A stretch of 32,000 bases of DNA from Candidatus Nanoarchaeia archaeon (GTDB lineage Archaea; Nanobdellota; Nanobdellia; Woesearchaeales; JANQNC01). The notes below the pieces were generated by a model. It saw only the letters and a program-made list of their open reading frames with translations. It had not been told where the DNA came from and made no database searches. The stretch spans positions 1,110,001-1,142,000 of the forward strand of contig JANQNC010000001.1 in assembly GCA_028279745.1 (NCBI GenBank), written 5' to 3'. Each line of letters opens with the position of its first letter. The first letter of the stretch is position 1. The position numbers and the translations under genes are program-made. Below are positions 1,205 through 31,947 of this stretch, in pieces.

Positions 1205-1256
1205 CCTGTATATTGTAGGATGCTTATAGTATATAAACATTTCTAAAAAAGAATAT

Positions 1257-12689: not shown

Positions 12690-13520
12690 ATGAAAGAATA
12701 TGGATTAGTATTGTCTAACGACGTAAAAGACCCTGAACAGATGTTGAGGGTGACCGAGCAGTCCAAAGAATTTATTGATGGAGTAAAAATAGGAATAACA
12801 TCATCAATGCTTCCAGGAGTAGAAGTTTTCAAAAGAGTAAAAGACATATTAGGAGACGATGTCGCACTCTTAGCAGATTACAAAGTAGCAGACATAGGAT
12901 TCACAAATAAAAAATCAGGAGATTGGGAAGGGACAAACCAAAAAATAGTTGAAACACTATCAAATGCAGGAGCAGACTACATCACGTGTCATACAATAAC
13001 AGGAATCGCAAGCATAGAAGAAAGTGTATCAACAGCTCACGCTAACGGTGCAAAAGTTCTTACACTACCTTACATGACACACAAAGGAGCAAACCTATTC
13101 TTCGGAATGCCTTTGGGAGAAGTACAAAGACAACATATGATAAACGAGTTTGAAGCATATGGGTTGAAAAAAGAGGAAAATGAACAGTTGTATGGGATGG
13201 TCAATAAAGCAAACACAGTTACAGATCTGATACTAATGTTAGGGAACCACTTCAACGTTGACGGCTATATAGGGCCTGGAAACAATCCAGATGTAATAAA
13301 GAACTACAGATCTTTCACACAAGATGAGGTCTGGAGTCCTGGGTTTGGGCGACAAGATAAAAAAGGAAGAAACCTTGATGAACAAATTGCAGAATGGGCT
13401 CCGCTAGTAGGACCTAAATCAGCAATGATTGTAGGATCATTAATCTACAAAGCAGATGATCCAAATCAAGCAGCGAGAGAAGTGATGGAAACAAGAGATA
13501 AGGTTGTAAGCAACCTTTAA
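12690..13520 (+). CDS. pyrF: Orotidine 5'-phosphate decarboxylase
   Basis: DxKxxDIxxT motif (LLADYKVADIGFTN), VKIG, SPGFGRQ and the C-terminal IVGSLIYKADDP. SD GAGGTGA. Context is next to pyrD, pyrK and pyrC. Confidence 0.8.
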   Translation: MKEYGLVLSNDVKDPEQMLRVTEQSKEFIDGVKIGITSSMLPGVEVFKRVKDILGDDVALLADYKVADIGFTNKKSGDWEGTNQKIVETLSNAGADYITCHTITGIASIEESVSTAHANGAKVLTLPYMTHKGANLFFGMPLGEVQRQHMINEFEAYGLKKEENEQLYGMVNKANTVTDLILMLGNHFNVDGYIGPGNNPDVIKNYRSFTQDEVWSPGFGRQDKKGRNLDEQIAEWAPLVGPKSAMIVGSLIYKADDPNQAAREVMETRDKVVSNL

Positions 13521-13537
13521 CTTTTCTTTTTTAGAAA

Positions 13538-14512
13538 ATGCCGAAATTAAAACTAGACATTCCGTTGGTGAATGGGTGCGGGATAGGATCATATCTAGAC
13601 TTATTTGAACTGATGGAGAAAAAAGGAGCGTGCTTTGGGGGATATATTCCAAAATCAATCGGACCTTTTTCTGATTCTGAAGCACTAAGAAAAAAGTTCG
13701 GATGGGAAAGAGAAAAACAAGGAAACCCAAACCCGACAGTGATAAGCACAGGAGCTGTTGAACTAAACTCAATGGCACTGCCCTCACATCCAGTAGAAGG
13801 ATGGAGGGGTGAGTTAGCGCAAACAACACTGAACGTTCCAATAATAGTATCAATATGGGGAAAAGAACCAGAAGATTATTTAAGAATTGCAGATATGGTC
13901 AAACAATACTTCTCAGCTTTGCAGATAAACATATCATGTCCAAATAAACAAGAAGGGGAAAGGAGCGTGATGGAAGAGATGACTTCACAAGTTGAGGCAA
14001 TAGTAAAACCAGTAAGAGATAATGTAGATCTACCTTTGATAGTAAAACTATCTCCTAATGAAGATTATCTGGCAGTAGCTAATGTTGTTATGCCCTATGT
14101 TGACTATCTTTGCTGTGGAAACACATTAGGACCGGGATTAGTTATAGATATCCATTCAAAAAAACCAGTACTTGCAGGAAAGGATGGGGGGATGTCCGGA
14201 GCAGCAATAAAACCAAAAACGATGAAGATGGTCAATGATGTCTATGAAGCGGCAAAAGAATCAGATGTTGGAGTGTGGGCATCAGGCGGAATAAGAAATT
14301 GGGAAGATATTATAGAATACGCAATAGCTGGAGCATCAACATTTGAATTAGGAACAGAAGTCTTTTCAAAGAAAGCAGCCGATGGAAGACTTGTAGGAAG
14401 ACCAACAGATGAAGTAGTCCAAGTTACAAAAGATATCTGGGAAGGAACACAGCAATACCTAAGACAAAATAACACGACACTAGACAATCTAGTTGGGAGC
14501 CTAGAAAAATGA
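13538..14512 (+). CDS. pyrD: Dihydroorotate dehydrogenase, class 1B catalytic subunit
   Basis: NISCPN active-site Cys motif, GGMSGAAIKP and ASGGI. An ATGA overlap joins it to the downstream pyrK-like gene. Confidence 0.85.
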   Translation: MPKLKLDIPLVNGCGIGSYLDLFELMEKKGACFGGYIPKSIGPFSDSEALRKKFGWEREKQGNPNPTVISTGAVELNSMALPSHPVEGWRGELAQTTLNVPIIVSIWGKEPEDYLRIADMVKQYFSALQINISCPNKQEGERSVMEEMTSQVEAIVKPVRDNVDLPLIVKLSPNEDYLAVANVVMPYVDYLCCGNTLGPGLVIDIHSKKPVLAGKDGGMSGAAIKPKTMKMVNDVYEAAKESDVGVWASGGIRNWEDIIEYAIAGASTFELGTEVFSKKAADGRLVGRPTDEVVQVTKDIWEGTQQYLRQNNTTLDNLVGSLEK

Positions 14513-15297
14513 AGAACAATTACCATCACACAAAAATAACCAAGATAGACGAACATAACGAAGATTACAGAAGCTTTACACTAGACACAATACTGGATTC
14601 AAAAGCAGGACAGTTTGTAATGGTGTGTCTTCCTGGAGTGGATGAAAAACCATTTTCTCTAAGTGCACCAAACCGAATAACAGTAAAAAAAGTAGGGCCT
14701 TTTACAGAGAAATTTTTCGAGAAAAAAGAAGGAGACTCTTTAGGCATAAGAGGGCCATATGGTAATGGATTCCCAAGCTCGTATCTTAATACTGCAATCG
14801 GAGGAGGATGTGGGATAGCACCACTAATGCATCTTGTTAGTGGGGGTTCAACACCACAAGTTACAAAATTTGTGTTAGCAGGAAAAACAAAATCAGAACT
14901 ATTGTTTCTGGAGGACATAACAAAAGCATTGGAAAATAATAGGAGCTATGAAAAAACAGAGATCATCACAGTAACAGATGACGGTTCTCATGGAACAAAA
15001 GGAGTTGCATCAGATCTTGTTCTTCCAAAATCAGAACATAACTATTTCATATGTGGGCCTGAAGTTATGATGCAGAAGGTAGCAGAAAAACTAGTGGCTA
15101 CTGAAGTAGATCCTTCAAAAATATTCTTAAGCCTGGAGAGATATATGAAATGTGCAGTAGGATTATGTGGAAATTGTCTAGTATCAGGATACAGAGTTTG
15201 TGCAGACGGACCTGTGTTTGGATATGACACTGTAAAAGACTTAAGACACTTCAACAAATATGAAAGAACAAGAACGGGAGAACTGGTGAAGAAATGA
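14509..15297 (+). CDS. pyrK: Dihydroorotate dehydrogenase electron-transfer subunit (FAD and 2Fe-2S)
   Basis: Ferredoxin-reductase-like fold (GQFVMV, GPYGNGF, GGGCGIAPL). C-terminal Cys cluster MKCAVGLCGNCLVSGYRVCADGPVF. ATGA overlaps on both sides. Confidence 0.85.
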   Translation: MKNNYHHTKITKIDEHNEDYRSFTLDTILDSKAGQFVMVCLPGVDEKPFSLSAPNRITVKKVGPFTEKFFEKKEGDSLGIRGPYGNGFPSSYLNTAIGGGCGIAPLMHLVSGGSTPQVTKFVLAGKTKSELLFLEDITKALENNRSYEKTEIITVTDDGSHGTKGVASDLVLPKSEHNYFICGPEVMMQKVAEKLVATEVDPSKIFLSLERYMKCAVGLCGNCLVSGYRVCADGPVFGYDTVKDLRHFNKYERTRTGELVKK

Positions 15298-16391
15298 TTG
15301 GTCCACATACACACTTTAGGGACTGGCAGCAAAGCAAAAAAGAAACACTTTATCATGGACTTAAAATAGCTTATCTAGCAGGATTTGATGGTGTGTTTGA
15401 GATGCCAAATACAGCACCTGCAATAACAACAAGAGATCTGTTAGAAAGAAGAGTGGAGTTAGGAGACAAAGCAATATACCAACTGGAAAAAGAGATCAAA
15501 GATTTCAAAATATTTCATGCAGTATATGCGGGGATAACAGCTAGCACAAAACAGATTGGGGTTATGGTAAAAGCATATAACGACTTGTTCCCAAGAGTTG
15601 TAGCACTAAAAGAGTTTGTAGGGCAATCAACAGGCAATATGGGAATAATCAAAGAAGAACAACAAAAAAGAGTTCCTCAAGTATTAGTTGCATCAGGTTA
15701 TGAAGGGGTTGTAAGTTTACATTGTGAAGAAGAATCTTTGATGGGGGGATTAAAGTTTGATCATAAAGATCCTTTTACACACACTCAAGCAAGACCGCCA
15801 CAAGCAGAAACATACTCTGCGCAAAAACAGATAGAATTCTATCAAGAAGCAGGATTCAAAGGAACATTAAACATATGTCACATCTCAGCACCAGAAACAT
15901 TATTTGCGGTGGAAAAAATGAGAGATAAAGTTGGGTTTAAGATAACAACAGAGCTAACACCACATCATGCAATGATGTATGATAAAATGATGGAAGGAAA
16001 AGATGGTTTGTTGCTAAAGATGAACCCTCCACTAAGACCAAAAGAGATGCAGGAATTCATGTTCAAAGCATTGATGGAAGGAAGAATAGACTGGATAGGG
16101 ACAGACCATGCACCACATACATTAGAAGACAAGGTAGATCCCAATAAAGAAGAACCATTTGCGTCAGGTATTCCGGGACTACCTTATTATCCAAAGTTCA
16201 TACAAGTTCTGAAGGATGAAGGCATCAGTGACTATATGCTAGACAGAATAACACACGATAACATAGTACATACATTTGGGATAGATCCTTCTTTGATACC
16301 GAACACAAAACGAGCAGGACTGCAAAACGACTGGGAGATAGAAAGACTAGCTTTAGCTTATGAGTTTGATGCTTTTGAGAAAGTGAGATGA
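15294..16391 (+). CDS. pyrC: Dihydroorotase (short N-terminus)
   Basis: HxH metal motif at residues 5-7 (MIGPHTHFRD), ALKEF (carboxylated-Lys region), ICHIS and GTDHAPHTLEDK. An in-frame stop at 15288-15290 excludes a longer N-terminus. Confidence 0.85.
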   Translation: MIGPHTHFRDWQQSKKETLYHGLKIAYLAGFDGVFEMPNTAPAITTRDLLERRVELGDKAIYQLEKEIKDFKIFHAVYAGITASTKQIGVMVKAYNDLFPRVVALKEFVGQSTGNMGIIKEEQQKRVPQVLVASGYEGVVSLHCEEESLMGGLKFDHKDPFTHTQARPPQAETYSAQKQIEFYQEAGFKGTLNICHISAPETLFAVEKMRDKVGFKITTELTPHHAMMYDKMMEGKDGLLLKMNPPLRPKEMQEFMFKALMEGRIDWIGTDHAPHTLEDKVDPNKEEPFASGIPGLPYYPKFIQVLKDEGISDYMLDRITHDNIVHTFGIDPSLIPNTKRAGLQNDWEIERLALAYEFDAFEKVR

Positions 16392-17738: not shown

Positions 17739-17863
17739 TACTTATAATGTATTCTGGCCTTTTATATGTGATTACAGCGGATGACCAGTGTCCAGTGCAT
17801 ATCAAAAAACCATAACCCTTATAAATGGAAATACCTCAAATATATACAATAAGGGGTGATTTG

Positions 17864-18793
17864 ATGGCAAGAGGAGGACTGATTGTACTTATAATTCTAG
17901 GAGTAGTAATACTTAGCACAATCCTTACAAGCGTAGTCGTATTTGTAGAAGAAGAATTAGGATTAATGGATGGCACAGGAAGAGTGGCATTGATAAGACT
18001 AGATGGAGAGATAATGCCTGCAGCAGAACAAACATTGTTCGGGCCGACAGCAGGACTAACAGCTGAAAGAGTAAAAGCAGACATAGAAAGAGCAGAAACA
18101 CTAAGAGTAGATGCAATAATCTTTGAAGTCAACTCACCTGGTGGAACTGTATTAGCAACAAAAGAGATAGGAGAAGAGATCAAAAAAGTAGAAGTGCCAA
18201 AGATAGCAGTCGTAAAAGAGTTAGCAGCATCAGGAGGATACTGGATTGCATCAACAACAGACTACATAATTGCAGATGAGATGAGCATATTAGGATCAAT
18301 CGGAGTGTTACTAGGATCACCAGTAGAAATTTCTGGACTGATGGAAAAGTACGGGATAAATTACACACAGATCACAGCAGGAAAATATAAAGATGCAGGC
18401 ACACCACTAAGACCGATGACAGAAGAAGAAAAAACTTTACTACAACAAAAAACAGACCTTATACATGAACAATTCAAAATAGAAATAATGGAAAATAGGG
18501 GCATGACTTACGAACAAGTAAGCCAAGTGTCAGAAGGATTATTCTATCTGGGAATAGAATCAGTAGACAACGGATTAATAGACCAGATAGGAAACCAAGA
18601 GACAGCAGAAGAACTATTGAAGGAGAAACTAAACGTATCAGAAATAAAGATCATAGAGATGGAACAAGAACCAACACTGCTGGAAGCACTATCGGGAGGA
18701 GTGTCAATGGGATTCTTCCAGATGGGAAAAGGAATAGGGACTGCATTAAAAGAAGTTAAGACTTCAGTCAACAAAATAGAGGTATTCACATGA
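17864..18793 (+). CDS. sppA: Signal peptide peptidase SppA (S49 family, 36K type)
   Basis: N-terminal TM, then NSPGGTV, AASGGYWIA and SIGVL. I prefer the ATG at 17864 over 17825 because SD AAGGGGTGAT sits 4 nt upstream and a TATA (CTTATAAATGG) overlaps 17825. Confidence 0.8.
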   Translation: MARGGLIVLIILGVVILSTILTSVVVFVEEELGLMDGTGRVALIRLDGEIMPAAEQTLFGPTAGLTAERVKADIERAETLRVDAIIFEVNSPGGTVLATKEIGEEIKKVEVPKIAVVKELAASGGYWIASTTDYIIADEMSILGSIGVLLGSPVEISGLMEKYGINYTQITAGKYKDAGTPLRPMTEEEKTLLQQKTDLIHEQFKIEIMENRGMTYEQVSQVSEGLFYLGIESVDNGLIDQIGNQETAEELLKEKLNVSEIKIIEMEQEPTLLEALSGGVSMGFFQMGKGIGTALKEVKTSVNKIEVFT

Positions 18794-19233
18794 TAGACTG
18801 GACATACATAGTAGAAGCGATAATTGTTTTGATCATAGTGTCAATCATTTTTACATTACTGAAAAAAGCAGTAAAGATGGTTGCATTAGGAATAGTGATA
18901 CTGTTGATGTTAACAGTATTTTCAGTATTCTTAATCAACCAAGACCTGAAAACATTTGACGATGCGCTTTTTAGGTTGACAGATGAAGAAGGAAATCTAA
19001 TGATGGTCTATAAAGGAGAACTTAGTGAGGGGATGTTTGGAAATGTAAGATCGATAGACGTGAATGCATCACACTTTGAACTAGATGAAGAAAACACCTT
19101 CGACAAAGCACTCGCAGCTAAGTTAAATGGAACAGACAAAGAAAATCAAATGTACTTAATTGAAAATTCAGAATCACAACCTGAAACAGCAGCATACAGA
19201 CTAAAACCAATAACGAAACTAATACTAAGATGA
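18790..19233 (+). CDS. Hypothetical two-TM membrane protein
   Basis: Two hydrophobic helices (IVEAIIVLIIVSIIFTLL and MVALGIVILLMLTVFSVFLI). ATGA overlaps with both flanking genes. Confidence 0.6.
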   Translation: MIDWTYIVEAIIVLIIVSIIFTLLKKAVKMVALGIVILLMLTVFSVFLINQDLKTFDDALFRLTDEEGNLMMVYKGELSEGMFGNVRSIDVNASHFELDEENTFDKALAAKLNGTDKENQMYLIENSESQPETAAYRLKPITKLILR

Positions 19234-21713
19234 AAAAAACTCTTGCTCTAATAACATTTTTTACATTTTTATTCTGTTTAACAACTGTAACAGCAGACAC
19301 ATACGCAGCAGACAAGATAATAGATGATTGGTTATTTTCACAAGAAACAATAACTGCAAAAGGAGAAGTCTACACAATCTTTATCGACTTAGGACTAGAC
19401 TCTATAAGCTTACGTGATGAAAATGGGGAGTACACAAAAATAAATCTGGGGCTTTGTAAAAGAATAGAAGACTTAGGATTTTGTCTGCAAGAGATAGAAT
19501 ACGACTTTGATGAAAAAGACGAAAAAGCAAGAATAGAAGTCTATGATCTGGAGGTCATAATAAACGTCACAAGAGAGATAACTGACGGAGGGTTGTTAAC
19601 GGGAGAAGAAACAACATTAACCGTAACACTAGATAATGACGGAGACGAAGATGTATATCTAAAGTTCATAGATGAATTTCCAAAAGGGATAGAAGTGTCA
19701 AAAGTTTCAGGCGGGGCAAAGCTTGAAAATAACATTGTCACATGGGAAGGTATGCTAAGAAAAAACCAAGATGAAGAGATAGAATATGAGATAAGAGCAG
19801 TTGAAGATGTAGACACAACTTTAGTGGGCAGGTTAGTCTATGAAGGTGAAGTGTATTATACTGAAAGAATAAAACTAAAATCCGAAACAGTCCTAGAAAC
19901 GGAGTTAAACTGGGAATACGAACCTTTAGTTCTAGGAGATGAGATAGAACTAAACGTAACACTGAAAAATGTAGAAGAAGACGAGATAGAGATAAACAAT
20001 TTTACCATATACTTCCCACCTGAACTATCTGTAAGAAAAGGAGGAAGACAGGTAACAAGCTACTTCTGGGACGGCGATATAAAAGAAGGTTCTACAAAGA
20101 ACTTAACAAGGTTTGAAGTGAATGCACAAAACCCTGGGATAAGCAAGATAAGAACAATAGCAAACTTTGATTTCCAAGATAAACACGACTTAATAATAAA
20201 AGATGAACAGTCTATTGAGGTTAAAGAACCGCAAATCTTCATCAGGATAAGACTTGCTGAAGACGGGGAGTATGAATACGATGGAGATGGAAAAGTAGAT
20301 GCACTACAAACTGGAAAGATAAAAGTAGACATACAAAAAAGCAATCCAGAAATAAACTATACTGATCTAAACATCAACATAAGCGGTTCAGCAATAAACG
20401 ACACAATCGAAGTATTCCTGGATAAACTAGTCACAATAGAAAATGAACGAGTAGCATCAATAGATTATGTTGCACCAGACGTAAAACGAGACACAACATA
20501 TGAAGTTGAAGTCAATGTTGAATTCACAACACAATACGGAGACAGGTCATCAGAAGAGGAAGACTACGATATACAGGTAAGAGAAGCAAGACTGGTTGAA
20601 GTTGATCATGACATAGATCCACGTAGTCCTGAAGCAGGAGAAGAGACAACAATAGAAGTCAATCTGAGAAACAAAAGACTGCAAGACCTAGAAAATGTAC
20701 ACGTGTGCACAGAGAGTGATATGCCAGAAATAAAAAAGAGGTGTAGGAAATTAAACATACTCTCAGGATCAGAAATAACCGCAAATGCATTTGAGATAAA
20801 ACCACCTAGAGTAAATGAGACAACAGATTTTATAATCAACACAACGTTAGACTATGTGGATGAAAACAGAAACTACTCTCACTTTGAAGAAAAGGTGATA
20901 AAAGTAAAACCAAGAGAGCTTGAACCTGACATAGACATGAGAGTAGACGATAAAGACATCCCTCTCGGAGGAGAAACGCTGGTCAGCTACAGAATAAAAA
21001 ATAACGAAGAAGAAACAATCAAAGGGTTAACATTGAATTTTGAACCCTCTCAATACTTTGACATAATAGGCAACACAACGTATTACGTTGGAAACATTGA
21101 CCCTGATGAGGAATTAAACCTGTATGATGTTCACGCAGTCCGAGCAAAGAAAAACGAGACACAAAAAATGGATAGAACTGTTGCTAAATTCGAAGACTTC
21201 TACTTCGGAAGAAAGTTTGAGGAAAACTCATCGCAAGTAACATTCAAAGTAACAAACTCTTACTTCTCAGGTCCGATGATAATAGCAAATAAGACAGCAC
21301 CTTCAGAAGTAAATGAATCACAATTCTTCACAGTTGTTATAGATCTTGAGAACATAGGAACCCGATCACAAAAAGTAAAGTTTGATGTTGGCGGGGTTGA
21401 GTATGAAAAAGATGTATATGCGGGCAAGACTGCGCAAGTGAGTTATGAGATGAAAATAGATGAACCCGGAGACAAACAGTTAGTGCCTAAAACTGTAATC
21501 AGTTATGAGTATGACGGCAATAAATACACAACTGCAACAAACGATCAAAAAATAAAAGTCAAAGCAAAACCAAAAGAAAAACCAAAAGATCCGGCTATTG
21601 ATACTGTCAAAGGAGAAACAGAAACATTTAAAACAATCAAAACCACAGATGAAAGAAAACCAGTAATAGTCCAAATAATAGACTTTTTCAAAAATCTATT
21701 CGGAGGAGAATAA
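19230..21713 (+). CDS. Large secreted protein with at least 5 DUF11/CARDB-like beta-sandwich repeats
   Basis: Signal peptide MKKTLALITFFTFLFCLTTVTADTYA. Repeated pattern: GEETTLTVTLDNDGDEDVYLKFIDEFPKGIEV, GDEIELNVTLKNVEEDEIEINNFTIYFPPEL, GEETTIEVNLRN, GETLVSYRIKNNEEETIKGLTLNFEP, FFTVVIDLENIGTRSQKV. Confidence 0.75.
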   Translation: MKKTLALITFFTFLFCLTTVTADTYAADKIIDDWLFSQETITAKGEVYTIFIDLGLDSISLRDENGEYTKINLGLCKRIEDLGFCLQEIEYDFDEKDEKARIEVYDLEVIINVTREITDGGLLTGEETTLTVTLDNDGDEDVYLKFIDEFPKGIEVSKVSGGAKLENNIVTWEGMLRKNQDEEIEYEIRAVEDVDTTLVGRLVYEGEVYYTERIKLKSETVLETELNWEYEPLVLGDEIELNVTLKNVEEDEIEINNFTIYFPPELSVRKGGRQVTSYFWDGDIKEGSTKNLTRFEVNAQNPGISKIRTIANFDFQDKHDLIIKDEQSIEVKEPQIFIRIRLAEDGEYEYDGDGKVDALQTGKIKVDIQKSNPEINYTDLNINISGSAINDTIEVFLDKLVTIENERVASIDYVAPDVKRDTTYEVEVNVEFTTQYGDRSSEEEDYDIQVREARLVEVDHDIDPRSPEAGEETTIEVNLRNKRLQDLENVHVCTESDMPEIKKRCRKLNILSGSEITANAFEIKPPRVNETTDFIINTTLDYVDENRNYSHFEEKVIKVKPRELEPDIDMRVDDKDIPLGGETLVSYRIKNNEEETIKGLTLNFEPSQYFDIIGNTTYYVGNIDPDEELNLYDVHAVRAKKNETQKMDRTVAKFEDFYFGRKFEENSSQVTFKVTNSYFSGPMIIANKTAPSEVNESQFFTVVIDLENIGTRSQKVKFDVGGVEYEKDVYAGKTAQVSYEMKIDEPGDKQLVPKTVISYEYDGNKYTTATNDQKIKVKAKPKEKPKDPAIDTVKGETETFKTIKTTDERKPVIVQIIDFFKNLFGGE

Positions 21714-22108
21714 TGAACCTACCATTTTTCAAAAAGAAAGAAGAAAAAGATGAATTGCCTGGATTAGATGAAGGACTTCCAGGAGCAGAACCGCTGCCTG
21801 GAGCAGAACCAACACTGCCGGGTTCAGAACCGAACCTTCCAGGAATGCCTTCAGAAACAACAACCGAAACATCTGGAGGAGTACAGACAACTTTTCAACC
21901 GCCAGGCGCACCAGAACAAGAAGAGCTTATGCCTTCAGTAAAACCTGGTCTGCAACACTCACCAATAGAACCAAAACAAGACTATACATCACCAAAAGAT
22001 CTCGAGATAGTTTCTGCTAAGCTAGATAACTTAAGACTAAGCTTTGAAGTATTAAACCAGAAACTAGACAACATCGAAAAGATGTTAAGAGAGAAAAGGA
22101 CTTGGTGA
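21713..22108 (+). CDS. Pro-rich LPG-repeat protein with a C-terminal coiled coil
   Basis: TAATG overlap with the upstream gene. Five LPGxEP-type repeats, then LEIVSAKLDNLRLSFEVLNQKLDNIEKMLREK. Confidence 0.6.
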   Translation: MNLPFFKKKEEKDELPGLDEGLPGAEPLPGAEPTLPGSEPNLPGMPSETTTETSGGVQTTFQPPGAPEQEELMPSVKPGLQHSPIEPKQDYTSPKDLEIVSAKLDNLRLSFEVLNQKLDNIEKMLREKRTW

Positions 22109-22231
22109 ATGACTTTCTTAAAAGACACGACCGGAGGAGTTTCACTTTAATGAAATCTAGTGTAGTTTTTTAAGTTAAGTTCAATTGAAGCAGTAAATGT
22201 TATAAACGAAGAATACTATGTTGGTGTATAG

Positions 22232-22251
22232 GCAGCTCCACTTGTCGCTGC
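22232..22251 (+). repeat. Hairpin-family copy: GCAGC-TCCACTTGTC-GCTGC followed by TCTTTTGAAAG
   Basis: 5-bp stem with a 10-nt loop, 11 nt upstream of the lspA ATG. Confidence 0.45.
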
Positions 22252-22262
22252 TCTTTTGAAAG

Positions 22263-22712
22263 ATGAAAAGGAAAAACTTGATGATTGTTTTGGTGTCTTT
22301 GGTTATTGTTTTACTAGACCAATTAACAAAAGGATTAGTTAGACATAACATGCAAACTGGTGAGAGCATACCTTTACTAAACAATTTTTTACACTTGACA
22401 TATGTTCAAAATGCGGGTGCGGGATTTGGGATACTGCAAGGCCAACAAGTTCTGTTTATTGTTTTGTCAGTCATTGTTCTTGGAGGCATAGCTTACTATT
22501 ACAAAAGAATTCCAGATATAGTTTCCTACAATGTTGTGACTGCAATGCTGATAGGAGGAACTATTGGAAATCTAGTTGACAGGATATTCTTAGGATATGT
22601 AGTTGATTTTTTGGATTTCAGAATTTGGCCAGTTTTCAATGTTGCAGACTCCTGTTTAACAATAGCGATAGTTATTATGATAATAATGAGCTTTAAGATG
22701 AATAAGAAATAA
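22263..22712 (+). CDS. lspA: Lipoprotein signal peptidase (signal peptidase II)
   Basis: DQLTK, NAGAGFG, GGTIGNLVDR, GYVVDFLDF and FNVADS. This is the full set of LspA motifs, including both catalytic Asp contexts. Confidence 0.85.
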   Translation: MKRKNLMIVLVSLVIVLLDQLTKGLVRHNMQTGESIPLLNNFLHLTYVQNAGAGFGILQGQQVLFIVLSVIVLGGIAYYYKRIPDIVSYNVVTAMLIGGTIGNLVDRIFLGYVVDFLDFRIWPVFNVADSCLTIAIVIMIIMSFKMNKK

Positions 22713-22714
22713 TT

Positions 22715-23269
22715 TTATCTTTTTGATGTTTTCTTCTTAGCTTTTTTCTTTGTTGATTTTTTACTTTTCTTTTTAGCAGTTTTTTTCTTACCTGATTTCT
22801 TTTTTGCTTTTTTCTTTGTTGGCTTCTTTTCAGGCTTGATCCCATAATACTTCTCAACCTTGATGTTTGAAGCAGCAATATTATCAAAAGCAGAATCGAC
22901 CTCAGCTCTAAGCTCTTTAATCGTTTTCTCGCTCAAAGATTTTCTTAAAGTCGTTGTGTTGTTAACACTTATAACAAACCCTAACGACATAAGAATTATG
23001 CCAATCACAAAAAAAGCCAAACTGACATCGGAAGTGTTAGAGAAATTTGCGATGATCATAACAATCATGTTAATCGCATAAAAGACTGAAAGCCTGAATA
23101 TCTTCTTTCTTGACTGTGTGAATGTCAGATAAACTGCACCCAGAACAAAAAGCAGTTCCCATATGACTGAACCTAAAATGTTAAACGGTTTTAAGAACCC
23201 GACAAGCGCAAAAAAACTTAACATAAGCAACAGACTGCTACCCAGTGAAAGAACTTTTTTACCCCCCAT
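22715..23269 (-). CDS. Multi-pass membrane protein with a lysine-rich C-terminal tail
   Basis: About four hydrophobic helices, then a 40-aa tail KPEKKPTKKKAKKKSGKKKTAKKKSKKSTKKKAKKKTSKR. Confidence 0.6.
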   Translation of the reverse strand: MGGKKVLSLGSSLLLMLSFFALVGFLKPFNILGSVIWELLFVLGAVYLTFTQSRKKIFRLSVFYAINMIVMIIANFSNTSDVSLAFFVIGIILMSLGFVISVNNTTTLRKSLSEKTIKELRAEVDSAFDNIAASNIKVEKYYGIKPEKKPTKKKAKKKSGKKKTAKKKSKKSTKKKAKKKTSKR

Positions 23270-23329: not shown

Positions 23330-23707
23330 CTAGAACTCTTCAATCTCTTCCAGCTTGCTCAAGTAACCTTTGTCTTTAAGCCACTTAACCTGTGTGAAAG
23401 TGTATTTGAAAATTATGTTGCCTTTTTCATCAGCAGAATACTCCCAAGGCTCAACGATGATTATGTCATTCTCTCTGATCCACAACCTTTTCTTTAACCT
23501 TCCAGGAATAGAACAAATTCTTGTCTTGCCGTCTAAACATCTAACTCTTGCCCTGCTGCCGCCCAGTCTTTGTTCAACAATGCCAAAGGTCTCGGGAGGT
23601 CTTGGTGTTCTTACATGCCTGATAACTTCCTCTGTCTGAGGAGCTTTACCTTTCTTTTTATTGAAATTTGTCTTCTTTTTGGGCTTTTTCTTAAACATCT
23701 CCCCCAT
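23330..23707 (-). CDS. eif1a: Translation initiation factor aIF-1A
   Basis: S1-like OB core [48 protein letters not shown]. Confidence 0.9.
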
Positions 23708-23791
23708 AGTAGAAGGCTGTGGTATATAAAGGTCACTATTATTCTAAAAGGCAAAACTTTATAAACAATTCCCAAATCCTCAAGGGTAATA

Positions 23792-24172
23792 ATGGCAAGA
23801 TCACAAACAAGACCAAAACGAAAAGCAACTGGTGGAAGATATAGCAAGTTGTACAGAAAGAAGAAACAGTACGAAGTAGGAAGCACACCAGTATTGACAA
23901 AAGTAGAAGATACAAAAGCTAAAAAAGTAAGAGTTGTTGGCGGAAACGAAAAACACAAACTACTTTCTTGCGATACAGTTAACTTAATGACAAAAGAAGG
24001 CAAGTGTGTAAAAACAAAGATAAAAACAGTAGAAGACAACCCAGCAAACAGAAACTTTGTAGTCAGGAACATACTAACTAAAGGTGCAGTTATAGAAACT
24101 GAGAAAGGAAAAGCAAAGATAACAAACAGACCTGGACAAGAAGGAACTGTTAATGCATTACAGATAGAATGA
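23792..24172 (+). CDS. rps8e: 30S ribosomal protein S8e
   Basis: MARSQTRPKRKATGGRY...VRVVGGNEKHKLL...RNILTKGAVIETE is characteristic of S8e. SD AGGGT. Confidence 0.9.
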   Translation: MARSQTRPKRKATGGRYSKLYRKKKQYEVGSTPVLTKVEDTKAKKVRVVGGNEKHKLLSCDTVNLMTKEGKCVKTKIKTVEDNPANRNFVVRNILTKGAVIETEKGKAKITNRPGQEGTVNALQIE

Positions 24173-24808: not shown

Positions 24809-25456
24809 ATGAACCAAATAATTCTTAATGAGCAGACTGCTTACCTTTCAGGAATGATTGTGGGTGACGGACATCTTTCTAACTCTGTAAAGTCTAAACG
24901 AAACGATGCTTCAAGAGATTATAGAATCACTTTGGACATAGTGGATAGAGAACATCTTTTTCTAGTTTTTAGAATTATAAAGGGGTTGATACAAACTAAA
25001 TCAGAACCCAAAGAAGTTAACCAAGGCGGCAACAGGATCAGGCGTTATTGTTTTCAATTTAGAAATAAAGATCTTTTTTTGTTTTTTCATGAAGAGTTAG
25101 GAATCCCAAAAGGTGCAAAGAGCTCGGTTGTGAGTGTGCCTTTGAAAATAAAGTTTTCTGGTGAAGAGATAAGGAGGAACTTTTTGGCAGGGTACTTTGA
25201 TGCAGATGGGGGTTTTAGGGGGAACACTTTGGGTTTCACCACTGCGAGTAAAAATTTAAATGAGGATATTGCAGAAATGTTGGGTGATTTTTCTTTTTCA
25301 TTTACTAAAGAGAGCTGGGTGAATAAGAAGTATGGAAAAACTTTTTTTGGTATTAGATTGAGGAGAAGTGAAATAGATAGATTTTTAAATAATTTCCCTC
25401 TCCGCAACAAAGAAAAGCTTGAAAGGATAAACAAGCGATTTAAAATCCAGGTTTAG
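24809..25456 (+). CDS. Free-standing double-motif LAGLIDADG homing endonuclease
   Basis: Two LAGLIDADG motifs: YLSGMIVGDGHL and FLAGYFDADGGF. 215 aa, an I-DmoI-like size. TATA-like CTTATTTAAGC lies ~25 nt upstream. Confidence 0.85.
   Translation: MNQIILNEQTAYLSGMIVGDGHLSNSVKSKRNDASRDYRITLDIVDREHLFLVFRIIKGLIQTKSEPKEVNQGGNRIRRYCFQFRNKDLFLFFHEELGIPKGAKSSVVSVPLKIKFSGEEIRRNFLAGYFDADGGFRGNTLGFTTASKNLNEDIAEMLGDFSFSFTKESWVNKKYGKTFFGIRLRRSEIDRFLNNFPLRNKEKLERINKRFKIQV
25439..25446 (+). promoter_or_regulatory. TATA box candidate (TTTAAAAT) for tRNA-Leu, inside the 3' end of the LAGLIDADG ORF
   Basis: Centred ~29 nt upstream of tRNA position 1, preceded by the purine-rich AAGCGA. Confidence 0.4.
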
Positions 25457-30372: not shown

Positions 30373-31254
30373 ATGAGACAAAAATCAATAATATTTACAG
30401 TGCTAGTTCTAGCAACAATTTTATTAGTTGGATGTGGTGAGAAAGAAGCTGAAAAACAAGAAGTGATAGATAAACCAATAGTAGTAACAGACACCGAAGA
30501 AAAAACAGTTGTAGAAGAGCCAAAATGCAAGCTGACAACAACTACAACAGGAAAGACAACAATTTGTTCCAGTGGGTGTGATTATACAACTGTAACGAGT
30601 GCGATAGAGAATGGGTTCACAGACATGATAATAACAGACTGTGGAGAATATGAAGAAAATGTGGTATTCAAAGAAGACGGCACAGTCTTGGATTGTCAAA
30701 GTGCAACAATCAAAGGAGCAAATGTTGGAGATGGAGTATATATGCCAAACGTAGACAATGGGGAACTAAAGAATTGCAAGATAGATGGATTTAACTTTGG
30801 CGTACATCTATTATCATCAAACAACAACAAACTGATGAATAATGATCTAGTAGGAAACAACCAAGGGATGAGGATAAAATTAAGCAGCGATAATCTAGTT
30901 GAAGGAAACACGATAAAAGACAGCAATGATGATGGGATGACTTTAATAACCGCTGCAGAAAATAACATGATAAAGAATAACGAGATATCAGGAAGCTTGC
31001 TTACAGGAATAACCGTGACATCAAACAAAAATACACTAGAAGGAAACACAATAATAAATAATGGAGAAGAAGGAATACATGTACAGGCACAAGATACTGT
31101 GTTAAGAAATAACGTATTAAAAGATAACGACGAGCAAGGATTAACATGCAAGCTAGCAAGAACAATAACCCTAGAAGGAAATGAATGTGAAGGAAATGCA
31201 GAAGGAGCATGTGATGGATGCCCCGCAGACAACTGTAATTCACAGAGCTGTTAA
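30373..31254 (+). CDS. Lipoprotein with right-handed parallel beta-helix (PbH1/NosD-like) repeats and a Cys-rich C-terminus
   Basis: Lipobox LLVGC (MRQKSIIFTVLVLATILLVGCGEK). Repeated N-x-[IL]-x-x-N ladders (NNKLMNNDLVGNNQGM, LVEGNTIKDSNDDGM, NNMIKNNEISGS, TLEGNTIINNGEEG, VLRNNVLKDNDEQG). C-terminal CEGNAEGACDGCPADNCNSQSC. SD GGGGTGGT. Confidence 0.7.
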   Translation: MRQKSIIFTVLVLATILLVGCGEKEAEKQEVIDKPIVVTDTEEKTVVEEPKCKLTTTTTGKTTICSSGCDYTTVTSAIENGFTDMIITDCGEYEENVVFKEDGTVLDCQSATIKGANVGDGVYMPNVDNGELKNCKIDGFNFGVHLLSSNNNKLMNNDLVGNNQGMRIKLSSDNLVEGNTIKDSNDDGMTLITAAENNMIKNNEISGSLLTGITVTSNKNTLEGNTIINNGEEGIHVQAQDTVLRNNVLKDNDEQGLTCKLARTITLEGNECEGNAEGACDGCPADNCNSQSC

Positions 31255-31266
31255 GGAGGTTAAAAA

Positions 31267-31947
31267 ATGAAGAAAATACTAACCATATTGGCATTACTAT
31301 CAGTCTTTTTATTGGTGGGATGCAGTCAAGAACTAATAGAAGAAAAAGAGTACAAAGTAGCTGGAGACGAAGACAAAAAAACAACAGTGACGGTCAAAGA
31401 TGATGATACAAGCGTGAAAACACAAGATGTTGACCAAAGAATAGTGGATGTTTTAGCAAACCAAGAAGATCTCAAAGGGTATTCCTACAAAATAGAACAC
31501 TATGAAAGTGTTGATAGCAACAGAGTGCTTAGATGGACCAAGTTTGCGAAGAAAGGAGATAAGATAAGACAAGAGTATTCAGGAAGGATCTTCTTTAGAG
31601 AAGGAGATGGAGAGGTTTACGAGTTCTTCCCAGGCGGAAAAAACAAGACTAAAAGAGTGCTTGCAAACGTACTTAGAGAAGATACACTCCTACTAAATGT
31701 TGATGAAATGATAAACCCAGAAGTAATCAACTTTAACTGGAATAGACCGCTAGAAGGAATGCTGATAGGGTATGAAGACAGCGCAGGAAATAAATACGAA
31801 ACATACCTATGGAAACATTATGGGTTACCTTTAGAGATAACAAAAACAAAGCTTAATGGGGATGTAGAGTTTGTTAAGTATGTTGACATAGATGCCTCAA
31901 TAAAAGAAGTGGAAGTGACCCTTCCAAACGCGGAGCTGATAGAATAG
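31267..31947 (+). CDS. Hypothetical lipoprotein
   Basis: Lipobox LLVGC (MKKILTILALLSVFLLVGCSQE). SD AGGAGGT. Starts 12 nt after the upstream gene. Confidence 0.65.
   Translation: MKKILTILALLSVFLLVGCSQELIEEKEYKVAGDEDKKTTVTVKDDDTSVKTQDVDQRIVDVLANQEDLKGYSYKIEHYESVDSNRVLRWTKFAKKGDKIRQEYSGRIFFREGDGEVYEFFPGGKNKTKRVLANVLREDTLLLNVDEMINPEVINFNWNRPLEGMLIGYEDSAGNKYETYLWKHYGLPLEITKTKLNGDVEFVKYVDIDASIKEVEVTLPNAELIE

What the first reader, a model, noticed from the sequence alone, without database searches (positions are those of the whole stretch)
17864..22108. Translationally coupled envelope operon: SppA, 2-TM protein, 827-aa DUF11/CARDB-like secreted protein, Pro-rich coiled-coil protein
Four consecutive genes are linked by ATGA, ATGA and TAATG overlaps, and lspA follows on the same strand. 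A signal-peptide-degrading protease is co-encoded with a small membrane protein. It is also co-encoded with a large multi-domain beta-sandwich surface protein that has no evident membrane anchor. The fourth product is a protein made of LPGxEP repeats plus a coiled coil. The coupling suggests a stoichiometric assembly, for example a tethering or export scaffold for the large protein. I do not recognise this combination as a described system.
Basis: partly seen in the sequence, partly recalled or inferred. Interest (0 to 1): 0.65.

Follow-up and report, generated by a model that had tools for sequence, protein, structure and literature searches.

The report
Woesearchaeal surface-protein and LspA gene cluster
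A real, tightly packed gene cluster of a tiny uncultivated (DPANN/Woesearchaeota-like) archaeon joins two known signal-peptide-processing enzymes to three unannotated but widely conserved proteins, one of them a large seven-domain cell-surface protein; it matters because part of this arrangement recurs in over a hundred related genomes and puts a bacterial-type lipoprotein signal peptidase, with a constant partner protein, in archaea.

Summary
SppA (17864..18793), a 2-TM protein ("TM2", 18790..19233), an 827-aa secreted all-beta protein ("Big", 19230..21713) and a Pro-rich coiled-coil protein ("CC", 21713..22108) are joined by ATGA, ATGA and TAATG overlaps. LspA follows 154 nt later.

- The window is a rearranged copy of a block seen in about 130 related metagenomic loci: S8e ... 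TM2-(Big)-CC-LspA-(4-TM protein)-eIF1A-(RDD-SppA).
- The firmest link is CC-LspA. LspA lies within 300 nt downstream in 78 of 103 loci, and the two genes overlap at 40 of 87 junctions.
- Big sits in the block in only about 5-10% of loci, always between TM2 and CC, in at least 7 lineages that are only 23-29% identical.
- SppA usually lies 2-4 kb away.
- Big belongs to a family of 600 clusters (at 50% identity). The model has seven Ig-like domains (pLDDT 88) and a C-terminal amphipathic helix where 20% of relatives carry a true TM anchor.
- Big has no lipobox, so it is probably not an LspA substrate. Two canonical lipobox proteins lie elsewhere in the window.
- TM2 and CC match no Pfam, NCBIfam or PDB family.

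A physical assembly is untested. It ranks as a new variant of an envelope or secretion gene cluster, of moderate interest.

The parts
17819..17859 (+). Putative archaeal promoter and ribosome-binding region of the cluster: TTATAAA at 17819-17825 and GGGGTGA at 17853-17859, before the ATG at 17864
   Evidence: Read directly from the sequence. Inferred, not tested; the sigma-70 scan is at chance level, as expected for an archaeon.
17864..18793 (+). SppA, a signal peptide peptidase of family S49. It has an N-terminal TM anchor (about aa 6-27), catalytic Ser123 (18230-18232) and Lys176 (18389-18391). An alternative start lies at 17825.
   Evidence: Pfam PF01343 E 1.7e-37. TIGR00706 scores 162.1 against a 155.45 cutoff. 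PDB 3rst/4kwb E 4e-28 with the dyad aligned. The start is supported by the alignment with L001 and L002.
18790..19233 (+). TM2, an unannotated membrane protein with an N-terminal 2-TM hairpin (aa about 5-49; basic loop LKKAVK) and a roughly 100-aa acidic C-terminal domain. Predicted topology is N-out/C-out. It is a shortened member of a family whose usual length is 220-245 aa.
   Evidence: Hydropathy. Family alignment A12 of 22 members. HMM hit E 6e-50 and presence upstream of CC in 37 of 72 loci. No Pfam, NCBIfam or PDB match. Topology is inferred from the positive-inside rule.
19230..19295 (+). Signal peptide of Big (aa 1-22). Signal peptidase I cleavage is predicted after VTA (A22). Cys16 is not part of a lipobox.
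   Evidence: Alignment A1: A22 is invariant in the clade. None of 118 full-length family members has a strict lipobox.
19311..21563 (+). Big ectodomain, seven consecutive Ig-like beta-sandwich domains. Approximate boundaries are aa 28-106, 111-219, 222-332, 336-450, 458-560, 567-675 and 684-778. Six of them carry the CARDB/DUF11-type N-x-G signature (N136, N247, N370, N481, N591, N708). Conserved Cys pairs are 76/85 and 493/505. Net charge is -70, with 15 N-x-S/T sequons.
   Evidence: AlphaFold2 with a 102-sequence alignment: pLDDT 88.0, pTM 0.77. Foldseek finds only multi-Ig/MG-domain arrays, with TM-score at most 0.22. Conserved columns. Composition. The family has 600 clusters at E below 1e-3.
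21564..21701 (+). Big C-terminal stalk (aa 779-811, Lys/Glu/Pro-rich, disordered) and conserved amphipathic helix (aa 812-824, VIVQIIDFFKNLF). This is the putative membrane anchor.
   Evidence: pLDDT below 50 for aa 790-809 and a helix at 812-824. 24 of 118 homologues have a true TM plus a basic tail at this position, and most others have the helix. Mean hydrophobic moment is 0.60 against 0.43 for shuffles.
21713..22108 (+). CC, an unannotated cytoplasmic protein. It has an N-terminal F-[FW]-K-K-K-[DE] motif (aa 1-12), a Pro-rich LPGxEP linker (aa 13-94) and a 4.5-heptad coiled coil (aa 95-127; 21995-22093). The terminal Trp codon sits in ACTTGGTGA.
   Evidence: Family alignment A5. More than 200 members found. 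No TM or signal peptide. Heptad spacing 3,6,10,13,17,20,24,27,31. Only generic coiled-coil hits in Pfam and PDB.
22109..22262 (+). Spacer between CC and LspA, with a T6 run (22166-22171) and TTATAAA (22200-22206). It suggests a possible terminator and a separate LspA promoter. The spacer is atypically long for the family.
   Evidence: Sequence. The family-wide CC-to-LspA gap has a median of 1 nt, and 40 of 87 junctions overlap. The function of these motifs is inferred.
22263..22712 (+). LspA, a bacterial-type lipoprotein signal peptidase (family A8). Catalytic Asp106 is at 22578-22580 and Asp129 at 22647-22649.
   Evidence: Pfam PF01252 E 9e-39. TIGR00077 scores 114.5 against a 73.95 cutoff. 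PDB 6ryo E 9e-26 with both Asp motifs aligned.
22715..23269 (-). Conserved convergent neighbour of LspA: a 184-aa protein with about 4 TM segments and a Lys-rich tail ('M184').
   Evidence: HMM hits in many loci directly after LspA. No Pfam match.
23330..24172 (.). Flanking markers of the conserved block: eIF-1A (23330..23707, -) and ribosomal protein S8e (23792..24172, +).
   Evidence: Pfam eIF-1a E 8e-21. S8e, LSm and L37e are seen in the same neighbourhood in L003, L006 and L008.
30373..31947 (+). Two canonical lipobox proteins that are likely LspA substrates: 30373..31254 (MRQKSIIFTVLVLATILLVGC; beta-helix/NosD) and 31267..31947 (MKKILTILALLSVFLLVGC).
   Evidence: Regex scan. Pfam Beta_helix/NosD.

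Best explanation
The region is an operon-like cell-envelope and secretion cluster of a Woesearchaeota-like DPANN archaeon. It is a rearranged version of a block conserved across that group, and it is best read as two coupled pairs plus a helper enzyme.

(1) TM2-Big. Big is exported through Sec, and its signal peptide is cut by signal peptidase I. It forms a rigid array of seven Ig-like domains on a flexible stalk. It is held at the outer face of the membrane by its C-terminal amphipathic helix; in 20% of relatives a true TM helix does this. TM2 is a 2-TM protein whose conserved domain is predicted to face outward. It is co-translated with Big and most likely acts as its membrane partner or receptor. 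Big is probably a major cell-surface protein, of the S-layer or adhesin type.

(2) CC-LspA. CC is a cytoplasmic coiled-coil oligomer with a conserved aromatic-basic N-terminal motif. In most relatives it is translationally coupled to LspA: the LspA start codon lies inside CC's last Trp codon. CC most likely acts with or on LspA at the cytoplasmic face of the membrane. LspA itself is an intact bacterial-type signal peptidase II. It processes the genome's canonical lipobox proteins and probably not Big.

(3) SppA is intact and membrane-anchored, and degrades released signal peptides. In this clade it has moved to the head of the operon.

Shown: gene identities, catalytic residues, the conserved order and its statistics, the overlaps, the Big fold, and the two classes of Big C-terminus.

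Inferred: topology, anchoring by the helix, any TM2-Big or CC-LspA contact, and Big's abundance or S-layer role.
For: Enzyme identities and active sites.

Conserved order:
- L001, L002, L007, L013/L014 and L137.
- A survey of 120 further metagenomic loci found with a degenerate CC pattern; 119 hold a true CC ORF.
- LspA lies within 300 nt downstream on the same strand in 78 of 103 loci. TM2 is directly upstream in 37 of 72. eIF1A occurs in 14 of 22 and SppA in 6 of 22 loci that have at least 5 kb downstream.

Coupling: CC-to-LspA has a median gap of 1 nt and 40 of 87 junctions overlap, typically [A/G]TGGTAA. Big-to-CC has a median gap of 16.5 nt. TM2-to-Big shows ATGA in the window and in L137.

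Big always lies between TM2 and CC, in lineages 23-29% identical to one another.

Big family and fold. Anchor classes and amphipathicity.

Some Big homologues carry an N-terminal hairpin resembling the TM2 one, which may be a fusion (weak).

No lipobox in Big (0 of 118) but two LLVGC proteins in the window.

TM2 and CC match no curated family.
Against: All functional links rest on gene order; there are no expression, interaction or structure data for TM2 or CC.

- Most CC loci lack Big, and about half lack a detectable TM2, so the four proteins cannot be an obligate unit.
- CC persists without a nearby LspA in about 14 loci (for example L071, L089, L031, L043).
- In the window itself the CC-LspA junction is loose (154 nt, with T6 and a TATA-like motif).
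- The CC N-terminal motif is not amphipathic (moment below shuffles), so membrane binding by CC is unsupported.
- The sampled loci all come from one archaeal group, so shared ancestry inflates the counts.
- Whether Big is abundant or lattice-forming is unknown. Foldseek gave only generic Ig-array matches.
Confidence: 0.55

Rival explanations
1. TM2, Big and CC form one stoichiometric trans-membrane assembly that exports or tethers Big: TM2 outside and in the membrane, CC inside. SppA and LspA serve it.
For: - Three consecutive overlaps in the window.
- When Big is present it is always flanked by TM2 and CC, in at least 7 deeply diverged lineages.
- TM-anchored Big homologues end in a conserved cytoplasmic tail motif (basic run followed by F-x-F-L-E-E) that could dock a cytoplasmic partner such as CC.
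- A CC sub-family lies directly downstream of other C-terminally anchored secreted proteins, which end in a PEF-CTERM-like signal (L040, L061).
Against: - Most TM2-CC-LspA blocks have no Big (4 of 72).
- L002 has Big and CC without TM2.
- The window-clade Big has no cytoplasmic part for CC to touch.
- TM2 exposes only a 6-residue loop to the cytoplasm.
- Big is not a lipoprotein, so LspA does not process it.
Confidence: 0.2
2. The arrangement is inherited synteny with no shared function. In these reduced, compact genomes a stretch between S8e and eIF1A has simply been kept, and the overlaps reflect genome compaction.
For: - 30% of same-strand junctions in the window overlap.
- The block is embedded among translation genes (S8e, LSm, L37e, eIF1A) that are unrelated to the envelope.
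- All loci come from one archaeal group.
- Members drop out individually: TM2, Big, LspA and SppA are each missing in some loci.
Against: - The order persists while protein identity falls to 23-30% and while the flanks are rearranged: LspA is inverted in L001, and SppA is moved in the window's clade.
- The CC stop and LspA start share codons at 40 of 87 junctions.
- Four of the five products are membrane or secreted proteins, two of them with the same theme (signal-peptide processing).
Confidence: 0.2
3. This is a protease-substrate pair of the NfeD/stomatin type. The ClpP-fold membrane protease (SppA) specifically cleaves its operon partner, either TM2 or the C-terminal stalk of Big, for instance to release Big from the membrane.
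For: - SppA also hits NfeD1b_N (E 2e-14).
- SppA overlaps TM2 (ATGA) in the window and in L001, and abuts Big in L002.
- Big has an exposed disordered stalk just before its anchor.
Against: - The S49 match is far stronger than the NfeD match (129 against 54 bits), and TIGR00706 SppA passes its cutoff.
- No SPFH/Band_7 domain occurs in TM2, CC or Big.
- Outside this clade SppA is not adjacent to TM2 or Big.
Confidence: 0.07
4. Big is a lipoprotein. The Cys16 conserved in its signal peptide is lipidated, and the adjacent LspA removes the signal peptide.
For: Cys16 is invariant in the three closest homologues, and LspA is nearby.
Against: - The residues before the Cys are LF, VI and LL, not a lipobox.
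- The Cys is absent at that position in L013 and most of the family. None of 118 members has a strict lipobox and only 1 of 118 a relaxed one.
- A conserved A-x-A type signal peptidase I site follows, at A22.
Confidence: 0.03

Closest known systems
Bacterial lipoprotein signal peptidase LspA (signal peptidase II, MEROPS A8; PDB 6ryo, 5dir)
   Same: Full-length homology (E 9e-26 to S. aureus LspA). Both catalytic Asp motifs are present, the size is similar (149 aa), and canonical L-x-G-C lipobox proteins occur in the same genome.
   Different: It is encoded in an archaeon, and PMC12462473 (2025) states that no archaeal Lsp homologue had been identified. In about three quarters of related loci it is translationally coupled to a small coiled-coil protein (CC). 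To my knowledge CC has no counterpart in bacterial lspA operons such as ileS-lspA.
Signal peptide peptidase SppA (MEROPS S49; B. subtilis SppA, PDB 3rst/4kwb; archaeal SppA of Thermococcus kodakarensis, from my own knowledge)
   Same: An S49 domain with the Ser/Lys dyad, a single N-terminal TM anchor, and a size of about 300 aa.
   Different: Here it heads an operon with unannotated envelope genes. In relatives it lies after eIF1A and an RDD-family gene.
Archaeal S-layer glycoproteins, for example Haloferax volcanii csg (from my own knowledge: several Ig-like domains, acidic, N-glycosylated, C-terminally anchored)
   Same: A signal peptide, a chain of Ig-like beta-sandwich domains, strong acidity (net charge -70), many N-x-S/T sequons, and a C-terminal stalk plus anchor.
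   Different: There is no sequence homology and no PGF-CTERM/archaeosortase signal. The anchor is an amphipathic helix or a plain TM. Lattice formation and abundance are unknown.
CARDB/DUF11 (PF07705, PF01345; TIGR01451) repeat proteins and MG-domain arrays (alpha-2-macroglobulin, complement, CD109)
   Same: The domain fold and the N-x-G signature. Homologue L013 passes the DUF11 and CARDB cutoffs. Foldseek's top hits include MG-domain proteins.
   Different: Only the individual domains are alike: global TM-score is at most 0.22. There is no thioester, bait or CUB region. The fixed seven-domain architecture and the C-terminal anchor define a separate family of 600 clusters.
NfeD-stomatin operons (Pyrococcus PH1510/PH1511, from my own knowledge)
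   Same: A ClpP-fold membrane serine protease translationally coupled to a small membrane protein, with a coiled-coil protein in the same operon.
   Different: No SPFH domain is present anywhere, and the protease is SppA-type rather than NfeD-type.
C-terminal amphipathic-helix anchors of exported proteins, for example E. coli PBP5/PBP6 (from my own knowledge)
   Same: An exported soluble ectodomain that ends in a short amphipathic helix after a linker. Within the family this helix is interchangeable with a TM anchor.
   Different: The proteins are unrelated, and membrane binding of the Big helix is untested. The helix could instead bind the TM2 ectodomain.

Membership tests
Peptidase S49 / SppA | S49 domain scoring above the curated cutoffs | tested here: met
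   PF01343 scores 129 bits against 24.9. TIGR00706 scores 162.1 against 155.45.
Peptidase S49 / SppA | Catalytic Ser-Lys dyad | tested here: met
   Ser123 (AASGGYW) and Lys176 (GKYKD) align with Ser147 and Lys199 of B. subtilis SppA; the K199A entry 4kwb shows A at that column.
Peptidase S49 / SppA | Degrades remnant signal peptides in the membrane | not testable with these tools
   Biochemical activity; only the N-terminal TM anchor could be seen.
Peptidase A8 / LspA | A8 domain scoring above the curated cutoffs | tested here: met
   PF01252 scores 133 bits against 25. TIGR00077 scores 114.5 against 73.95.
Peptidase A8 / LspA | Two catalytic aspartates, in the GNxxDR and FNxAD motifs | tested here: met
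   Asp106 and Asp129 align with the catalytic Asp residues of PDB 6ryo.
Peptidase A8 / LspA | Lipobox substrates ([LVI][ASTVI][GAS]C) in the same organism | tested here: met
   Two LLVGC proteins in the window, and 17 distinct N-terminal sequences (a few of them alternative starts or doubtful ORFs) in 0.9 Mb of related loci.
Peptidase A8 / LspA | An upstream lipidation enzyme (Lgt or archaeal AliA/AliB) in the genome | not testable with these tools
   Only 32 kb of a 1.3-Mb contig is available, and none was seen in the window.
CARDB / DUF11 repeat proteins | Domain scoring above the Pfam cutoff | tested here: inconclusive
   The window protein scores 19.9 against 24.6 (not met). Its full-length homologue L013 scores 41.8 for DUF11 and 33.6 for CARDB (met).
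CARDB / DUF11 repeat proteins | Ig-like beta-sandwich fold with the N-x-G signature | tested here: met
   An all-beta model with pLDDT 88. N136, N247, N370, N481, N591 and N708 are nearly invariant. Foldseek matches Ig/MG arrays.
Bacterial-type lipoprotein (as a reading of Big) | Lipobox with the invariant Cys at +1 | tested here: not met
   The sequences before Cys16 are LFC, VIC and LLC. None of 118 family members has a strict lipobox.
Archaeal S-layer protein (as a reading of Big) | Secreted, acidic, multi-Ig, C-terminally anchored | tested here: met
Archaeal S-layer protein (as a reading of Big) | Very abundant and forms a 2-D lattice | not testable with these tools
   Needs proteomics or cryo-ET.
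Archaeosortase substrates (PGF-/PEF-CTERM) | C-terminal tripartite signal: motif, TM, basic tail | tested here: not met
   The window Big ends in a 13-residue amphipathic helix without a PGF or PEF motif. PEF-like ends were seen only in unrelated proteins upstream of a CC sub-family.
NfeD-stomatin operon | An SPFH/Band_7 partner protein | tested here: not met
   No Band_7 hit in TM2, CC or Big.
Membrane-targeting amphipathic N-terminus of SepF/MinD type (as a reading of CC) | High helical hydrophobic moment at the terminus | tested here: not met
   Mean moment is 0.33 against 0.41 for shuffles over 85 CC proteins.

The most novel reading that the evidence does not exclude
CC, with or without TM2, is a dedicated partner subunit of an archaeal LspA. 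If so, Woesearchaeota run a lipoprotein-maturation machine built differently from the bacterial one. The same module would also be wired to the cell's principal surface protein (Big), giving a previously undescribed envelope-assembly system that spans cytoplasm, membrane and surface in DPANN archaea.
Probability: 0.22. Interest if true: 0.75.

Novelty: new variant of a known kind. Interest (0 to 1): 0.5.

Why it matters
(1) A 2025 study of archaeal lipoproteins (PMC12462473) states that no archaeal Lgt or Lsp homologue is known and that the archaeal lipoprotein signal peptidase remains to be found. Here an intact bacterial-type LspA sits in an archaeal genome next to canonical lipobox proteins, with a constant, translationally coupled partner. 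That gives a concrete candidate and a testable accessory factor for at least one archaeal lineage.

(2) The 827-aa protein defines a large, architecturally fixed family of surface proteins: 600 clusters at 50% identity, each with seven Ig-like domains, a stalk and an anchor. The cell surface mediates host attachment in uncultivated DPANN archaea, so this family is a good candidate for their main surface or S-layer component.

(3) Three families without annotation (TM2, Big, CC) gain a defined genomic context that can guide experiments.

If the links turn out to be only inherited gene order, the result is simply a well-characterised conserved neighbourhood.

Tried and rejected
- Word-indexed homologue searches for Big found only 2 relatives, or 7 with a profile, because the candidate list saturated. 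The exhaustive profile search was needed.
- The first structure model, built from 3 sequences, was unusable (pLDDT 43.8) and was replaced by the 102-sequence model.
- Both genome-contig scans with Big alignments found no relative, so the organism could not be named from GTDB genomes. Taxon assignment rests on archaeal marker genes and on source names of homologues ('Candidatus Woesearchaeota', 'Nanoarchaeota').
This was solved with a hand-made degenerate DNA pattern.
- Rfam and tRNA scans of the window were empty.
- The bacterial promoter and terminator scan was at chance level.
- There is no DNA tandem repeat under the LPGxEP repeats.

Hypotheses rejected:
- Big as a lipoprotein.
- An NfeD/stomatin-type operon: no SPFH domain.
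- The CC N-terminus as an amphipathic membrane-targeting helix.
- Big as an orphan or lineage-specific insertion.

Foldseek gave no specific structural relative for Big, only generic Ig arrays.

Full report
**Observation.**
- SppA is 17864..18793. An upstream ATG at 17825 is unlikely to be the start: homologues begin at the residue matching 17864, which is preceded by GGGGTGA and, 39 nt upstream, TTATAAA.
- The 2-TM protein (TM2 here) is 18790..19233, the 827-aa protein (Big) 19230..21713, and the Pro-rich coiled-coil protein (CC) 21713..22108.
- The junctions are ATGA, ATGA and TAATG.
- LspA (22263..22712) follows after 154 nt that hold a T6 run and a second TTATAAA.
- Overlaps are frequent in this genome: 6 of 20 same-strand junctions overlap, including the pyrimidine genes. 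The overlaps mark an operon rather than something unusual.
- The window is archaeal, carrying eIF-1A, S8e, LSm and L37e. Homologues of the cluster proteins are labelled Candidatus Woesearchaeota or Nanoarchaeota by their sources.

**The two enzymes.**
- SppA passes Pfam S49 and TIGR00706. Its Ser123/Lys176 dyad aligns with B. subtilis SppA.
- LspA passes Pfam A8 and TIGR00077. Both catalytic aspartates (Asp106, Asp129) align with S. aureus LspA.
- Two ORFs elsewhere in the window (30373.., 31267..) begin with textbook lipoprotein signal peptides ending LLVGC. LspA therefore has plausible substrates.
- A 2025 paper on archaeal lipoproteins states that no archaeal Lsp or Lgt homologue had been identified (PMC12462473). 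I found no paper discussing LspA in DPANN archaea.

**The three unannotated proteins.** None of TM2, Big or CC matches NCBIfam. Pfam gives only a sub-threshold DUF11 hit for Big and generic coiled-coil noise for CC. PDB sequence searches with profiles of CC and TM2 are empty.
- CC belongs to a well-defined family (alignment A5). It has an N-terminal M-G-x-x-x-K-L-x-F-W-K-K-K-[DE] motif, a variable P/G/Q-rich linker (the LPGxEP repeats are specific to the window), and a C-terminal 4.5-heptad helix, L-E-[VI]-I-S-A-K-L-D-x-[IL]-[KR]-...-N-Q-R-L-x-N-[IL]-E. It usually ends in Trp. It has no signal peptide or TM segment. Its N-terminus is not amphipathic.
- TM2 belongs to a family that is usually 220-245 aa long: a 2-TM hairpin with a basic loop, then a conserved domain ending in Y-P-E-T-x-x-F-K (alignment A12). 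By the positive-inside rule that domain faces outward (inference). The window copy is a shortened version.

**Comparative genomics.**
- Looking up contigs that encode homologues showed the same order in L001 (SppA-TM2-Big-CC, with LspA inverted), L002 (SppA-Big-CC-LspA, no TM2) and L007 (Big-CC-LspA).
- More distant CC homologues revealed the general pattern: S8e ... TM2-CC-LspA-(4-TM protein, convergent)-eIF1A-(RDD-SppA).
- L013, from a Woesearchaeota MAG, has TM2-Big-CC-LspA-eIF1A-RDD-SppA. Its Big is a full-length homologue only 23% identical to the window's (E 1e-54).
- I scored these loci with HMMs built from my seed sequences:

| Feature | Count |
|---|---|
| LspA on the same strand within 300 nt downstream of CC | 78 of 103 |
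| LspA within 1.6 kb downstream | 82 of 103 |
| TM2 directly upstream of CC | 37 of 72 |
| Big directly upstream of CC | 4 of 72 (6 of 119 counting partial ORFs) |
| eIF1A, in loci with at least 5 kb downstream | 14 of 22 |
| SppA, in loci with at least 5 kb downstream | 6 of 22 |

- At non-redundant junctions the CC-to-LspA gap has a median of 1 nt, and 40 of 87 junctions overlap. The typical junction is [A/G]TGGTAA, so the LspA start codon lies inside CC's final Trp codon.
- The window's 154-nt spacer is therefore the exception. Its ACTTGGTGA looks like a relic of that arrangement.
- The Big copies that sit between TM2 and CC are only 23-29% identical to each other across lineages.
- A Big homologue chosen without reference to CC (P0091, L137) is again overlapped (ATGA) by a TM2 gene, E 2.6e-23.

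**The Big family.**
- The exhaustive profile search found 600 clusters (50% identity level) at E below 1e-3 and 148 at E below 1e-30. Most align end to end at 800-1040 aa.
- With a 102-sequence alignment AlphaFold2 gives pLDDT 88.0 and pTM 0.77. The model has a signal peptide, seven beta-sandwich domains, a disordered stalk (aa 790-809) and a terminal helix (aa 812-824).
- Nearly invariant N-x-G positions recur in six of the domains.
- Homologue L013 passes the DUF11 and CARDB cutoffs.
- Foldseek finds only generic Ig/MG-domain arrays: ciliary central-pair proteins, mastigonemes, alpha-2-macroglobulin and complement. TM-scores are at most 0.22.
- The protein is very acidic (net charge -70) and has 15 N-x-S/T sequons.
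- The C-termini fall into two classes. 24 of 118 members have a true TM helix with a basic tail that often ends F-x-F-L-E-E. Most of the rest have a short aromatic-basic amphipathic helix, with a mean moment of 0.60 against 0.43 for shuffles.
- An element interchangeable with a TM anchor, placed after a stalk, is most simply a membrane anchor.
- None of 118 members has a lipobox, and a conserved A-x-A-type site follows the hydrophobic core. Big is therefore probably a signal peptidase I substrate, not an LspA substrate.
- A few homologues start with an extra TM that makes their N-terminus resemble the TM2 hairpin. This is weak evidence (E down to 8e-6 in a search of 149 sequences).

**Most likely working.**
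- TM2 and Big form one pair: an outward-facing membrane protein co-translated with a C-terminally anchored, rigid, seven-Ig-domain surface protein. Big is plausibly the main surface or S-layer-like protein.
- CC and LspA form the second pair: a cytoplasmic coiled-coil oligomer made together with the lipoprotein signal peptidase.
- SppA, which clears cleaved signal peptides, belongs to the wider neighbourhood and has moved to the head of the operon in the window's clade.
- The gene identities, active sites, order statistics, overlaps, fold and anchor classes are shown. Topology, helix-mediated anchoring and every protein-protein contact are inferred.
- I put 0.55 on this two-pair envelope-module reading.

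**Rivals.**
It keeps some support from the fixed TM2-Big-CC order and from the conserved cytoplasmic tail motif of TM-anchored homologues.
- Pure inherited synteny (0.2) is weakened by persistence down to 23% identity, by rearranged flanks and by shared stop/start codons.
- An NfeD/stomatin-like protease-substrate pair (0.07) lacks an SPFH domain, and SppA is not adjacent outside this clade.
- Big as a lipoprotein (0.03) fails the lipobox test.

**Comparison with what is known, and novelty.**
- SppA and LspA are ordinary members of their families, although an LspA in an archaeon is notable given the recent literature.
- Big is a distinct, large family built from known CARDB/DUF11-type domains. 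It has the general anatomy of archaeal S-layer glycoproteins but no homology to them and no archaeosortase signal.
- TM2 and CC are unannotated families.
- The arrangement is best filed as a new variant of an envelope or secretory-maturation gene cluster. The new elements are the conserved CC-LspA coupling and the TM2-Big pair.
- Interest is moderate (0.5). The families and their linkage are new and testable, but function rests on gene order alone.

**What did not work.** See 'tried and rejected'. In particular, I could not name the genome, could not run multimer predictions, and could not test whether genomes whose block lacks Big encode it elsewhere.

Noticed in passing
window 30373..31254 (+) and 31267..31947 (+): Two adjacent ORFs start with textbook lipoprotein signal peptides ending LLVGC. 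The first is a beta-helix/NosD-type protein. They are likely substrates of the nearby bacterial-type LspA, in an archaeon; the 2025 literature says no archaeal Lsp homologue is known.
   Followed up: partly
window 22100..22108; CC-LspA junctions in L002, L007, L010 and many of L017-L136: CC ends in Trp in 94 of 135 loci. Its last codons are typically [A/G]TGGTAA, so the LspA ATG or GTG start lies inside the Trp codon (-7 overlap). The window has ACTTGGTGA and a displaced LspA, which looks like a relic of that coupling.
   Followed up: yes
window 22715..23269 (-): A 184-aa protein with about 4 TM segments and a Lys-rich tail is a conserved convergent neighbour of LspA in many related loci. In relatives the tail carries a Cys/His-containing motif instead. 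It has no family assignment.
   Followed up: partly
L040 838..1647 and L061 5079..7040 (upstream of CC): A CC sub-family with the N-terminus MGFFDSFNPFRKKDE lies directly downstream of secreted proteins that end in PEF...TM...KKRK, a PEF-CTERM-like sorting signal. This is a second case of CC sitting next to a C-terminally anchored surface protein.
   Followed up: no
Big-family proteins P0096, P0103, P0116, P0121, P0204: These homologues have an extra N-terminal TM and a basic loop before the signal-peptide-like segment. The result resembles the TM2 hairpin, so they may be TM2-Big fusions or may have mis-called starts.
   Followed up: partly
TM-anchored Big homologues, e.g. L013 1361..4105, P0099, P0117, P0155, P0159, P0171: Their short cytoplasmic tails share a motif: a basic run followed by [FP]-x-F-[LI]-E-E at the very C-terminus. 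This suggests a docking site for a cytoplasmic partner.
   Followed up: no
L015 5077..5394: A small protein with a canonical lipobox (VIAGC) lies immediately upstream of CC-LspA in this distant locus. The LspA gene there had not been called by the source annotation, but my HMM finds it at 5807..6205.
   Followed up: partly
window 24809..25456 (+): A free-standing LAGLIDADG-type endonuclease ORF lies next to the L37e/LSm/S8e genes. A LAGLIDADG ORF is also seen near LSm in L008.
   Followed up: no
window 5248..7686 (+) and 27527..30220 (+): Two further large ORFs. One is 812 aa with four DUF4215 Cys-rich repeats. The other is 897 aa with no Pfam match.
   Followed up: no
window 12690..16391 (+): A pyrimidine-biosynthesis cluster: OMP decarboxylase, dihydroorotate dehydrogenase with its Fe-S subunit, and a 365-aa ORF without a Pfam hit. 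Its genes are also joined by ATGA overlaps, which shows that such overlaps are routine in this genome.
   Followed up: partly
window 275..1240 (-) and 1329..2273 (+): Two divergently arranged proteins of about 320 aa, each with an N-terminal MazE/AbrB-type domain. One also has a sub-threshold PhoU-like region (21.5 bits against a 23.5 cutoff).
   Followed up: no
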